Positions 40,002 to 45,498 of a stretch of 64,000 bases of DNA are shown here, piece after piece (the first letter of the stretch is position 1; every line of letters starts with the position of its first letter). Made by a program: the position numbers and the translations under genes. Below the pieces are notes generated by a model. It searched no databases. It was not told the origin of the DNA and worked only from the letters and a program-made list of their open reading frames with translations. The DNA comes from Heptranchias perlo (taxonomy: Eukaryota). Where the stretch lies: the NCBI RefSeq assembly GCF_035084215.1, contig NC_090347.1, forward strand, positions 45,818,001 through 45,882,000, in the 5' to 3' direction.

Positions 40002-41600
40002 GCATTGGCATTGACTGAGCATTAGACAAGGACACCCCGAAGTGCTTCACAATCAACGGGTTACTTGTGCCGTCCAGTCACTATATATTATGTGGACATT
40101 AGTGCATTTTTTATCCATGCTTCTAAGATTTCTCCTGGGATTAATCCCGATTATGTTTTTCTGTGTTAAAACCACTATATAAATGGAAGTTGTTGTTGTT
40201 GATTGGTGCATGTTAAGAAGACAGAAACGGTTTTTGTCTTGATAAGGCCTTGGCAGACTAAGTGATTGGGCAAAACTATAGCAGATGGAGTTCAATGTGA
40301 GCAAATGTGAGATCATCCACTTTGGACCTAAGAAAGATAGATCAAGAGTATTTTCTAAATGGTGAGACGTTAGCAACTGTAGCAACGAGATTTGGGAGTC
40401 CAAGTACACAAATCATTTAAAGCTTGTAGACAGGTAGAAAAATAATCAAAAAGGCAAATGAAATGTTGGCCTTTATCTCAAGGGGGCTAGTATACAAAGG
40501 GGAGGAAGTTATGCTTCAGTTGTGCAGAGCCCTGGTTAGACCCCATCTGGAGACTGGGTTCAGTTTTGGGCACTGCACCTCAGGAAGATATATTGGCCTT
40601 GGCAGGTTCACTAGAATGATACCGGGGCTTAGAGGGCTAAATTAACTGGACAGGTTGCAGAAACTTGGTCTGTATTCTCTTGTGTATAGGAGATTGAGGG
40701 CTGATCTGATCAAGGTGTTTAAAATGATAAAGAGATTAGCAAAGCCTTTGACAAGGTACCGCATGGTAGGTTGTTACATAAGGTTAAATCTCACGGGATC
40801 CAAGATGAGGTAGCCAATTGGATACAACATTGGCTTGACGACAGAAGACAGAGGGTGGGTGTAGAGGGTTGTTTTTCAAATTGGAGGCCTGTGACCAGCG
40901 GTGTGCCTCAGGGATCGGTGCTGGGTCCGCTGTTATTTGTTATTTATATTAATGATTTGGATGAGAATTTAGGAGGCATGGTTAGTAAGTTTGCAGATGA
41001 CACCAAGATAGGTGGCATTGTGGACAGTGAAGAAGGTTATCTAGGATTGCAACGGGATCTTGATAAATTGGGCCAGTGGGCCGATGAATGGCAGATGGAG
41101 TTTAATTTAGATAAATGTGAGGTGATGCATTTTGGTAGATCGAATCGGGCCAGGACCTACTCCGTTAATGGTAGGGAGTTGGGGAGAGTTATAGAACAAA
41201 GAGATCTAGGAGTACAGGTACATAGCTCCTTGAAAGTGGAGTCACAGGTGGATAGGGTGGTGAAGAAGGCATTCGGCATGCTTGGTTTCATTGGTCAGAA
41301 CATTGAATACAGGAGTTGGGATGTCTTGTTGAAGTTGTACAAGACATTAGTTAGGCCACACTTGGAATACTGTGTACAGTTCTGGTCACCCTATTATAGA
41401 AAGGATATTATTAAACTAGAAAGAGTGCAGAAAAGATTTACTAGGATGCTGCCGGGACTTGATGGTTTGACTTACAGGGAGAGGTTAGATAGACTGGGAC
41501 TTTTTTCCCTGGAGAGTAGGAGGTTGAGGGGTGATCTTATACAAGTCTATAAAAGGAATCTTACAACACCAGGTTATAGTCCAACAAATTTATTTTAATA

Positions 41601-41637
41601 TCACAAGCTTTCGGAGATTATCTCCTTCGTCAGATGA
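41601..41637 (-). ncRNA. Minimal hammerhead ribozyme motif (inverted arm copy)
   Basis: Exact reverse complement of 44645-44681. Confidence 0.85.
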
Positions 41638-41875
41638 ATGAATGAAAAGGTTCTCAAATCGCATATCTTATACTATGTTGGGACAGCATCACACCAATCA
41701 AAAGGTGTCGTTGTTATTCAAACAGGCCAGTCACGGAGAACAGCACGTCCCAGTACACTCGATATACATTGTCTATTACACAGGCAGGCAGAAAGAAACT
41801 CAAAATGGCAGAGAGAGAGAGAGAGAGAGAATTTTAAAAAACATATAAATTTTTTCCCCCTTTTTGCTGGTGGGG

Positions 41876-43115
41876 TTACGTGTAGCGTGACATGAACCCA
41901 AGATCCCGGTTGAGGCCATCCTCATGGGTGCGGAACTTGGCTATCAACTTCTGCTTGACGATTTTGCGTTGTCGTGTGTCTCGAAGGCCGCCTTGGAGAA
42001 CGCTTACCCGAAGATCGGTGGCTGAATGTCCTTGACTGCTAAAGTGTTCCCCGACTGGGAGGGAACCCTCCTGTTTGGCGATTGTTGCGCGGTGTCCGTT
42101 CATCCGTTGTCGCAGCGTCTGCATGGTCTCGCCAATGTACCATGCTCCGGGGCATCCTTTCCTGCAACGTATGAGGTAAACAACGTTGGCCGAGTCACAG
42201 GAGTATGAACCATGTACCTGGTGGGTGGTGTCCTCTCGTGTGATGGTGGTATCCGTGTCGATGATCTGGCAAGTCTTGCAGAGGTTGCCGTGGCAGGGTT
42301 GTGTGGTGTCGTGGACGCTGTTCTCCTGAAAACTGGGTAACTTGCTGCGAACGATGGTCTGTTTGAGGTTGGGTGGCTGTTTAAAGGTGAGCAGTGGAGG
42401 CATGGGGATGGCCTTTGCGAGGTGTTCGTCGTCATCGATGACATGTTGAAGGCTGCGGAGAACATGGTGTAGTTTCTCCGCTCCAGGGAAGTACTGGACG
42501 ACGAAGGGTACTCTGTTGGTTGTGTCCCGTGTTTGTCTTCTGAGGAGGTCTATGCGATTCTTCGCTGTGGCCCGTCGGAACTGTCGATCGACAAGTCGAG
42601 CGTCATATCCCGTTCTTACGAGGGCGTCTTTCAGCGTCTGTAGGTGTCCATCGCGTTCCTCCTCGTCTGAGCAGATCCTGTGTATTCGCAGGGCCTGTCC
42701 ATAGGGGATGGCCTCTTTGACGTGGTTGGGGTGGAAGCTGGAAAAGTGGAGCATCGTGAGGTTGTCCGTGGGCTTGCGGTAGAGTGAGGTGCTGAGGTGC
42801 CCGTCTTTGATGGAGATTTGTGTGTCCAAGAAAGAAACCGATTCTGAGGAGTAGTCCATGGTGAGTTTGATGGTGGGATGGAACTTGTTGATGTTATCGT
42901 GTAGTCTCTTCAGTGATTCTTCGCCGTGGGTCCATAGGAAGAAAATGTCGTCGATGTATCTGGTGTATAGTGTTGGTTGGAGGTCCTGTGCAGTGAAGAA
43001 GTCGTGCTCGAACTTGTGCATGAAAATGTTGGCGTATTGGGGTGCGAATTTGGTCCCCATGGCTGTTCCGTGTGTTTGGGTAAAGAACTGGTTATTGAAG
43101 GTGAAGACATTGTGA
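41876..43115 (-). CDS. PLE RT C-terminal half + GIY-YIG endonuclease (left arm; open frame but 5'-truncated)
   Basis: 414-aa open frame in the ORF track; lacks the RT N-terminal motifs and has no ATG start. Confidence 0.85.
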
Positions 43116-44401
43116 GCCAATCTCCAGACGCCATCCTACAACTCATCCGCTTCATCCTGGATCACAATGTCTTCACCTTCAATAACCAGTTCTTTACCCA
43201 AACACACGGAACAGCCATGGGGACCAAATTCGCACCCCAATACGCCAACATTTTCATGCACAAGTTCGAGCACGACTTCTTCACTGCACAGGACCTCCAA
43301 CCAACGCTATACACCAGATACATCGACGACATTTTCTTCCTATGGACCCACGGCGAAGAATCACTGAAGAGACTACACGATAACATCAACAAGTTCCATC
43401 TCACCATCAAACTCACCATGGACTACTCCTCAGAATCGGTTTCTTTCTTGGACACACAAATCTCCATCAAAGACGGGCACCTCAGCACCTCACTCTACCG
43501 CAAGCCCACGGACAACCTCACGATGCTCCACTTTTCCAGCTTCCACCCCAACCACGTCAAAGAGGCCATCCCCTATGGACAGGCCCTATGAATACACAGG
43601 ATCTGCTCAGACGAGGAGGAACGCGATGGACACCTACAGACGCTGAAAGACGCCCTCGTAAGAACGGGATATGACGCTCGACTTGTCGATCGACAGTTCC
43701 GATGGGCCACAGCGAAGAATCGCATAGACCTCCTCAGAAGACAAACACGGGACGCAACCAACAGAGTACCCTTCGTCGTCCAGTACTTCCCTGGAGCGGA
43801 GAAACTACACCATGTTCTCCGCAGCCTTCAACATGTCATCGATGACGACGAACACCTCGCTAAGGCCATCCCCATGCCTCCACTGCTCGCCTTTAAACAG
43901 CCACCCAACCTCAAACAGACCATCGTTCGCAGCAAGTTACCCAGTTTTCAGGAGAACAGCGTCCACGACACCACACAACCCTGCCACGGCAACCTCTGCA
44001 AGACTTGCCAGATCATCGACACGGATACCTCCATCACACGAGAGGACACCACCCACCAGGTACATGGTTCATACTCCTGTGACTCGGCCAACGTTGTTTA
44101 CCTCATACGTTGCAGGAAAGGATGCCCCGGAGCATGGTACATTGGCGAGACCATGCAGACGCTGCGACAACGGATGAACGGACACCGCGCAACAATCGCC
44201 AAACAGGAGGGTTCCCTCCCAGTCGGGGAACACTTTAGCAGTCAAGGACATTCAGCCACCGATCTTCGGGTAAGCGTTCTCCAAGGCGGCCTTCGAGACA
44301 CACGACAACGCAAAATCGTCGAGCAGAAGTTGATAGCCAAGTTCCGCACCCATGAGGACGGCCTCAACCGGGATCTTGGGTTCATGTCACGCTACACGTA
44401 A
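43116..44401 (+). pseudogene. PLE RT + GIY-YIG (right arm), interrupted by a premature stop
   Basis: Near-identical to the left arm; CGA>TGA stop at 43589-43591 after PYGQAL. Confidence 0.85.
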
Positions 44402-44644
44402 CCCCACCAGCAAAAAGGGGGAAAAAAATTTGTATGTTTTTAAAAATTCTCTCTCTCTCTCTCTCTCTCTGCCATTTTGAGTTTCTTTCTGCCTGTCTGT
44501 GTAATAGACACAATGTATATCGAGTGTACTGGGACGTGCTGTTCTCCGTGACTGGCCTGTTTGAATAACAACGACACCTTTTGATTGGTGTGATGCTGTC
44601 CCAACATAGTATAAGATATGCGATTTGAGAACCTTTTCATTCAT

Positions 44645-44681
44645 TCATCTGACGAAGGAGATAATCTCCGAAAGCTTGTGA
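44645..44681 (+). ncRNA. Minimal type I hammerhead ribozyme motif in the PLE 3' region
   Basis: TCAT-CTGACGA-A-GGAGA(taa)TCTCC-GAAA-GC-TT-GTGA: stem I TCAT/GTGA, CUGANGA core, stem II, GAAA, palindromic AAGCTT in place of stem III. Predicted cleavage after 44677. Confidence 0.85.
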
Positions 44682-45498
44682 TTTTAAAATAAATTTGTTG
44701 GACTATAACCTGGTGTTGTAAGATTCCTTACATTTGTCCACCCCAGTCCATCACCGGCATCTCCACATCAAGTCTATAAAATAATGAGGGGCATAGATAA
44801 GGTAGATAGTCAAAATCTTTTCCCAAAGGTAGGGGAGTCTATAACGAGGGGGCATAGATTTAAGGTGAGAGGGGAGAGATACAAAAGGGTCCAGAGGGGC
44901 AATTTTTTCACTCAAAGGGTGGTGAGTGTCTGGAACGAGCTGCCAGAGGCAGTAGTAGAGGCGGGTACAATTTTGTCTTTTAAAAAGCATTTGGACAGTT
45001 ACATGAGTAAGATGGGTATAGAGGGATATGGGCCAAGTGCAGGCAATTGGGACTAGCTTAGTGGTATAAACTGGGCGACATGGACATGTTGGGCCGAAGG
45101 GCCTGTTTCCATGTTGTAAACTTCTATGATTCTATGATTCTATTCAATAGGATAAATAGAGAGACGCTATTTCCTCTGATAGAGGAATCGAGAACAAGGG
45201 GCTATAATCTTAAAATTAGAGCTAGGTTATTTAGGAGTGAAATCAGGAGGCACTTTTTCACACAAAGACTAGTAGAAATCTGGAACTCTCTCCCCCGAAA
45301 GGCTGTTGGTGCTGGGGGACAAGTGGAGGTTTCAGGATTGAGATCGATAGATTTTTGTTAGGTAAGGGTATCAAGGGATATGGACCAAAAGTGAGAAAAT
45401 AGAGTTGAGGTGCAAATCAGCCATGATTGAATGGCAGAACAGGCCCAAGTGGCTGAATGGCCTACTTCTGTTCCTATGTTCCTATAGTCCATGTAAAT

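What the first reader, a model, noticed from the sequence alone, without database searches (positions are those of the whole stretch)
41542..44781. 3.2-kb fold-back Penelope-like retroelement: 1.56-kb inverted arms inside one target-site duplication
Seen: a 5'-truncated Neptune-type PLE (43116-44768, +) is preceded by an inverted copy of itself (43115-41553), with a 46-nt spacer. The whole unit sits inside one 13-bp TSD in a CR1 RT frame, so it arose in a single event. The inverted arm lacks exactly the last 39 nt (44730-44768). Known: PLEs often carry inverted pseudo-LTRs and a short unique 3' tail. Here the inversion duplicates nearly the entire insert, including the RT and GIY-YIG coding sequence, whereas L1 twin priming inverts without duplicating. 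Inference: the first-strand cDNA snapped back (weak tgg microhomology at the turn) and copied itself before joining the target. Any read-through transcript would form a ~1.5-kb dsRNA hairpin.
Basis: partly seen in the sequence, partly recalled or inferred. Interest (0 to 1): 0.8.

Follow-up and report, generated by a model that had tools for sequence, protein, structure and literature searches.

The report
Head-to-head Penelope retrotransposon insertion in shark
A dead copy of a Penelope-like jumping gene sits here as two mirror-image halves; this layout is already described for the class and is the commonest form of this family in this genome, and the many sister copies suggest it comes from both cut DNA ends being extended separately rather than from one strand folding back.

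Summary
In detail: 1,563/1,568-nt inverted arms (15 substitutions), 46-nt spacer, one-sided 39-nt tail, one 13-bp TSD in a LINE frame. It is not exceptional. An inverted 5'-truncated copy plus a one-sided 30-40-nt tail is the described architecture of endonuclease-bearing Penelope-like elements, and 23 of 34 young sister loci ascertained without regard to the tail have it; several have longer arms (1.6-2.0 kb). Simple snap-back is not the general route: in 8 of 49 simple pairs the tail sits on the shorter arm, tailless ends also occur on solo copies with their own TSD, the median spacer is 711 nt, and some arms carry different lineage variants. Best reading: both target nicks prime reverse transcription at two internal RNA start sites that bound the tail (shown in vitro for an anole element), usually on one RNA or one source; the two cDNAs are then end-joined. 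A near-symmetric subclass (9 of 49, including this locus) is in excess, so snap-back is not excluded for this copy. Transcription and hairpin RNA were not shown. This scan noted the short form of the pattern before in other genomes.

The parts
40723..41554 (+). Host LINE reverse-transcriptase fragment, 5' side (CR1-type by recalled C-terminal motifs)
   Evidence: RVT_1 E 2.4e-22; frame runs into the TSD
41542..41554 (+). Left copy of the 13-bp target-site duplication; last 2 nt also match the arm
41553..43115 (-). Tailless inverted arm: 5'-truncated PLE (RT 3' half, Cys linker, GIY-YIG, 3' UTR/pLTR), outer end at -39
   Evidence: RVT_1 E 6.9e-06
43116..43161 (+). 46-nt spacer: unduplicated 5' end of the tailed arm; 1-nt exact microhomology at 43115
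43162..44729 (+). Duplicated part of the tailed arm; stop codon at 43589; ORF ends 44401
44649..44674 (+). Hammerhead-like core (CTGACGA, short stem, GAAA) in the pLTR; mirrored in the left arm
   Evidence: read by eye against a recalled core; the short stem forms in the fold; no Rfam hammerhead match; minimal HHRs are reported for fish Neptune PLEs (PMC4209133)
44730..44768 (+). 39-nt one-sided tail; in tandem copies it is followed by C and the ATG of the next unit
44769..44781 (+). Right copy of the TSD; LINE frame resumes
54277..54508 (-). Second, short copy of a related subfamily with the same architecture (about 85-nt arms, tail on the left, 13-bp direct repeat at both ends)

Best explanation
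A dead, 5'-truncated EN+ Penelope-like insertion made by double target-primed reverse transcription. The endonuclease cuts both strands about 13 nt apart (inferred from the TSD). Each 3'-OH pairs over 2-4 nt with the element RNA and primes cDNA at one of two internal start sites that bound the tail: here the right nick at the tail end, the left nick about 39 nt upstream (two start sites and extension of both strands are shown in vitro for another PLE; inferred here). Both cDNAs are usually copied from one RNA, its tandem units, or RNAs of one source; the second polymerase follows the first and often stops short, sometimes at nearly the same place (inferred). The two truncated cDNA ends, on opposite strands, are joined by microhomology or filler end joining and filled in, giving head-to-head arms in one TSD (inferred).
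For: Tail on the shorter arm in 7 of 42 simple young pairs, 8 of 49 with the long-copy set, 6 of 17 older loci listed; a fold-back copy cannot extend past the strand it copies. Tailless ends are priming sites on their own: 5 of 5 tailless solo or tandem copies have 9-13-nt direct repeats, 3 of 5. Tailed ends match 2-4 nt into the next unit in 48 of 68 ends. In L143, L150, L159 the tailless side is a tandem over 3 kb and the tailed arm starts upstream of the partial unit; in L150 that arm carries the upstream unit's variant at -160, not the full unit's. In 7 of 7 tandem-plus-inverted loci the single arm reaches further 5' than the tandem's partial unit (pattern noticed after the fact). Median spacer 711 nt. 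Fillers at junctions: 81 foreign nt in L078, local duplications in L099, L108, L111. Arms differ at lineage-diagnostic sites in 6 of 181 comparisons (0.2 expected from mutation), including three linked sites in L033 and -1169 in this locus. PMC11167929: both strands cleaved and extended, two adjacent start sites equal the tail, dimer predicted.
Against: All evidence for this locus is by analogy with sister copies; here the tail is on the longer arm, which snap-back allows. Arms are far more alike than random family members (6 discordant against 43 expected; 25 shared minor alleles; 7 shared private non-CpG variants in 24.4 kb), so independent RNAs from the whole pool are ruled out and a same-template step must be assumed. 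Near-equal inner ends are in excess (8 of 42 within 60 nt against 2.8 expected, p about 0.004). The tail is on the longer arm in 40 of 49, an unexplained bias. The two arms here share one otherwise absent CpG-type variant (-882). Single-site discordances may be gene conversion. Only 5 of 15 tailed copies without a tailless partner showed a repeat of 10 nt or more.
Confidence: 0.68

Rival explanations
1. Snap-back: the first cDNA folded on itself over a 46-nt loop and was copied back to about 39 nt short of its start before joining the other nick. May apply to the near-symmetric subclass only.
For: Tail on the longer arm here; loop in the orientation of the tailed arm; 4-of-5 pairing at the turn; shared -882 variant; 9 of 49 pairs have short/long ratio of 0.9 or more against 1 between 0.7 and 0.9; L101 has a 6-nt loop.
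Against: Near-symmetric pairs include tail-on-shorter-arm cases (L105; older L066 and L049). It gives no reason for the copy to stop in the same -31 to -41 zone where solo tailless copies begin. Exact microhomology is 1 nt. The arms differ at -1169, a family polymorphism (weak, one site).
Confidence: 0.17
2. Self-primed hairpin intermediate made before integration (self-priming on an antisense RNA, PMC3846280) and opened or trimmed by the endonuclease at either tail boundary (PMC8557442).
For: Published hypotheses that allow the tail at either end; explains same-template arms.
Against: Outer ends match the target over 2-4 nt as expected of target priming; fillers at the inner junction; L033 and L150 haplotypes; in vitro the tail equals two RT start sites.
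Confidence: 0.09
3. Two separate insertions at the same site, or a later inverted duplication of one copy.
For: It happens: L138 is two insertions with a third copy of the target sequence at the junction; L146 is a 2.4-kb palindrome with no differences that extends into its flanks.
Against: No target sequence at this junction; one TSD; the inversion stops at the element end; 40 of 42 simple pairs have one outer TSD of 11 nt or more.
Confidence: 0.04
4. Assembly or library fold-back artefact.
For: Junctions not confirmed in reads.
Against: 15 substitutions and 3 gaps between arms, 7 of 13 unmasked ones CpG-type; TSD; no inversion of the flanks; asymmetric tail typical of the family.
Confidence: 0.02

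Closest known systems
Complex insertions of EN+ Penelope-like elements: inverted 5'-truncated copy plus one-sided 30-40-bp tail (Craig et al. 2021, PMC8557442; passages read)
   Same: Head-to-head 5'-truncated copy, tail at one end, partial tandems in sister copies, single TSD.
   Different: Arm lengths are not quantified in the passages read; here one arm pair is 1.56 kb and the family gives a distribution. The tail here ends just before the ATG and the targets are AT-rich rather than microsatellites.
Poseidon element PAc of Anolis carolinensis in vitro (Frangieh et al. 2024, PMC11167929; parts 1-2 of 4 read)
   Same: Two adjacent internal start sites bounding the tail; both strands cut and extended; hammerhead in the pLTR region.
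   Different: PAc starts lie 111-118 nt inside the ORF and are reported as not homologous to the target; here ends match the target over 2-4 nt. PAc is Penelope/Poseidon clade; the paper does not reconstitute head-to-head products in the parts read.
Adineta vaga Penelope inverted pLTRs and self-priming hypothesis (Arkhipova et al. 2013, PMC3846280; passages read)
   Same: Inverted pLTR 37 bp shorter, 31-bp tail, whole unit in one TSD, head-to-head.
   Different: About 0.2-kb arms with palindromes at the junction; explained by self-priming, which the sister copies here fit less well.
Rearranged Penelope copies with long inverted repeats in Drosophila giving siRNA (PMC3681739; passages read)
   Same: Long inverted repeats inside the element body as a dsRNA source.
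   Different: Expression and small RNAs are not shown for this locus.
LINE-1 twin priming (recalled, not read)
   Same: Both nicks prime; cDNA ends joined by microhomology.
   Different: In L1 the second primer lands upstream on a unique RNA, so nothing is duplicated; here it lands at a fixed start next to the first or in another tandem unit, so the 3' part is duplicated.

Membership tests
EN+ Penelope-like element | Single ORF with RT and C-terminal GIY-YIG endonuclease | tested here: met
   Natural copy L102 has one 891-aa ORF; RVT_1 E 2.9e-10; Pfam gave no GIY-YIG hit on the query itself, but the VYLIRC…C…WYIGET motif is present and many homologues carry PF01541
EN+ Penelope-like element | CCHH motif with two cysteines between GIY and YIG | tested here: met
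   YLIRCRKGCPGAWYIG, then two histidines downstream; definition from PMC8557442
EN+ Penelope-like element | Partial tandems forming pseudo-LTRs | tested here: met
   In sister copies L037, L102, L118, L136, L144; not in this truncated copy
EN+ Penelope-like element | Inverted 5'-truncated copy and one-sided 30-40-bp tail | tested here: met
   This locus and 23 of 34 loci
EN+ Penelope-like element | Hammerhead ribozyme motif in the pLTR | tested here: inconclusive
   Core seen by eye at 44649-44674; no Rfam match; cleavage not testable
Neptune clade | CX2-5CxxC linker between RT and EN (shared with Nematis) | tested here: met
   CHGNLCKTC; definition
Neptune clade | RT phylogeny with named Neptune references, apart from Nematis | not tested
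   No named reference set was at hand; 'Neptune-type' rests on the linker and on vertebrate occurrence
Simple snap-back product | Copy never extends beyond the strand it copies (tail always on the loop-bearing arm) | tested here: not met
   Met at this locus, not met family-wide: 8 of 49 young pairs, 6 of 17 older loci
LINE-1 twin priming | Inverted part does not duplicate the non-inverted part | tested here: not met
   1.56 kb duplicated; L076 alone looks L1-like

The most novel reading that the evidence does not exclude
The family records, in vivo, two polymerases copying the same tandem RNA from both target nicks, the trailing one displacing and stopping at or behind the leader; this would give one rule for tails, inverted arms, tandems and a distinct near-symmetric class (about one pair in five, including this locus) that seeds multi-kilobase palindromes across a shark genome. 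I found no such genome-wide table in six literature searches; subscription papers such as Arkhipova 2006 were not available.
Probability: 0.4. Interest if true: 0.5.

Novelty: new member of a known kind. Interest (0 to 1): 0.27.

Why it matters
The locus itself is a dead, ordinary product. The family matters modestly: how Penelope-like elements make tandem and inverted insertions is called undefined in PMC8557442, and about a thousand candidate places per query (lower bounds), with near-identical top hits and clean TSDs, let the competing models be tested from sequence alone. Hundreds of long inverted repeats could also be sources of dsRNA or of instability, which was not tested.

Tried and rejected
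Laying contigs of 4 runs of one sample on 41200-43170: fragmented by family copy number, no listed piece bridges a locus-specific junction; no evidence either way on assembly or expression. Rfam: only a miRNA-like score on the turn hairpin, below threshold, a by-product of the inversion. Position -1356 as a sign of two templates: rejected, it is the query's own allele, which enriched that set. L138 as a chimera of two subfamilies: rejected, two insertions. L146 left out of pair counts (both ends tailless, palindrome runs into the flanks). Dropped before the count of 42: L102, L108, L116, L078 (tandem, rearranged or foreign filler), solo copies, and five near-identical duplicates of L050 in the older set. 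Several 'insertion' values at junctions reflect differences from the single reference copy, so no microhomology statistic is claimed. Host gene spanning the locus: a recalled nesting of chondroadherin in an acyl-CoA synthetase intron was tested by a family search (no match on this contig among 14 scored of 78) and by 113 short frames against Pfam (111 of them from the 178 listed on +; none hit such a family); these are weak tests, so the question stays open. Folding of the tail region gave no significant structure.
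Full report
Observation. The two arms align over 1,563 and 1,568 nt with 15 substitutions and three gaps of 1-2 nt; spacer 46 nt, tail 39 nt. One 13-mer bounds the unit, occurs only twice in the window, and the interrupted LINE frame resumes across it. The left TSD copy shares 2 nt with the arm, and exact microhomology at the turn is 1 nt. 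Of 13 unmasked differences 7 are CpG-type, as expected from decay after insertion; with the TSD and un-inverted flanks this makes an artefact unlikely, though reads did not confirm the junctions. A short copy with the same layout lies at 54277-54508.

What it is. A natural sister copy (L102) gives a 3,033-bp unit with one 891-aa ORF: RT, a CHGNLCKTC linker, and a GIY-YIG domain with two internal cysteines. These are the marks of Neptune/Nematis-type Penelope-like elements in PMC8557442 (passages). The closest named relatives are shark proteins at 82-96% identity. The window copy lacks the first half of the ORF and is dead.

How common. Four DNA searches of the own genome scored 40 candidates each, out of 66, 1,025, 942 and 955, so the sample is the copies most like the queries, not a census. 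I examined 38 stretches besides the window, all 40 loci, all 34 loci, and 20 loci (22 of 41 matches). In the set, which does not select for the tail, 23 of 34 loci are head-to-head with one tailed and one tailless end (hand count). Of 42 simple young pairs 40 lie in one TSD of 11-17 nt, at most one mismatch. Duplicated arms longer than here occur in L101 (1.87 kb, 6-nt loop), L119, L129 and older L033, L047, L049. The size is therefore not a record.

Mechanism: evidence against simple snap-back as the rule. A fold-back copy cannot reach beyond the start of the strand it copies, so the tail must be on the loop-bearing arm. It is on the shorter arm in 7 of 42 pairs, 8 of 49 with the long-copy set and 6 of 17 older loci. 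L066 is almost the mirror case of this locus: ends at -1645 and -1595, 13-bp TSD, tail on the shorter arm. Tailless ends fall between -31 and -41 in 54 of 54 cases and also begin solo or tandem copies with their own target repeat (5 of 5; 3 of 5), so they behave as priming sites. Tailed ends match 2-4 nt into the next tandem unit in 48 of 68 cases. The median spacer is 711 nt, and junctions carry fillers in some loci. In L143, L150 and L159 a tailless tandem of over 3 kb faces a tailed arm that starts upstream of the partial unit. These fit PMC11167929 (parts 1-2 read), where a purified Penelope-like protein cut and extended both strands and began at two adjacent internal sites equal to the tail.

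One template or two. At nine diagnostic non-CpG sites, arms were discordant in 6 of 181 comparisons, against 43 expected for independent draws from the family and 0.2 for one template plus mutation; 25 shared a minor allele. Seven private non-CpG variants are shared by both arms in 24.4 kb. So arms mostly come from one RNA or one source (succession of subfamilies in time or later conversion between arms would give the same picture), and sometimes from different templates (L033, three linked sites). In 7 of 7 tandem-plus-inverted loci the single arm reaches further 5' than the tandem's partial unit, and in L150 it shares that unit's variant; this suggests two polymerases on one tandem RNA, but I noticed it after the fact. 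For this locus the signals conflict and are weak: a shared CpG-type variant at -882, a discordant family polymorphism at -1169.

What stays open. Near-equal inner ends are over-represented: 8 of 42 within 60 nt against 2.8 by permutation (p about 0.004); 9 of 49 have a ratio of 0.9 or more, only 1 lies between 0.7 and 0.9 (p 0.05 against uniform). This locus is in that class. Snap-back could make it, but the class includes tail-on-shorter-arm cases (L105, L066, L049), so a trailing polymerase stopping near the leader, or a shared RNA break, explains it with one mechanism. The 40:8 bias for the tail on the longer arm is unexplained; part of the sample is selected that way. I give double priming 0.68 and snap-back 0.17 for this copy.

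Comparison with what is known. PMC8557442 (passages) describes an inverted 5'-truncated copy and a 30-40-bp tail at either end as typical and the mechanism as undefined. PMC3846280 (passages) shows inverted pLTR, tail and single TSD and proposes self-priming. PMC3681739 (passages) reports long inverted repeats in Penelope copies and matching siRNAs. PMC4209133 (passages) reports minimal hammerheads in fish Neptune elements. A 2026 preprint (10.64898/2026.07.22.740005; passages) added nothing on inversions. No supplements were read; those of PMC11167929 may bear on genomic end positions. L1 twin priming and the CR1 label are recalled. Six searches showed no genome-wide table of arm lengths or tail side; subscription papers were not covered. 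Three earlier notes of this scan describe the short form in other genomes; none is near this locus.

Verdict. Real, single-event, and a new member of a known kind. The hairpin-RNA consequence is untested: no host gene was shown to span the locus. Interest 0.27, for the family as a test bed rather than for this copy.

Noticed in passing
L146:270-5602: 2.4-kb arms with no differences over 2,366 sites, both ends tailless, nested in an older short hairpin of the same family; the palindrome continues into the flanks. Very recent insertion into a palindromic target, later homogenisation, or an assembly effect.
   Followed up: partly
L033:3770-8155: One TSD-bounded pair whose arms carry different lineage variants at -1706, -948, -767 and -752: best case for two templates in one event.
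   Followed up: yes
L150, L143, L159, L153: Tandem tailless arm facing a single arm that starts further 5'; tandem units differ at single diagnostic sites.
   Followed up: partly
L078:2123-2203: 81 nt of unrelated sequence captured between the two arms.
   Followed up: no
L103, L088, L146: Young copies inserted inside older hairpins of the same family.
   Followed up: no
L050, L051, L056, L057, L058, L067: The same insertion present six times on two unplaced contigs, probably a segmental or satellite-like amplification.
   Followed up: no
window:20733-21668 (-): Leucine-rich-repeat exon with a signal peptide, chondroadherin-like by recall (LRR_8 E 6.7e-47).
   Followed up: partly
window:61640-61979 (+): Broken frames that resemble a second leucine-rich-repeat gene N-terminus, read by eye.
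   Followed up: no
window:28252-30229: DDE_Tnp_4 transposase fragment on - (E 5e-09) facing a 214-aa frame on +; Harbinger-like by recall.
   Followed up: no
window:3832-4187 and 51641-51916: 67-bp tandem arrays present twice in opposite orientation.
   Followed up: no
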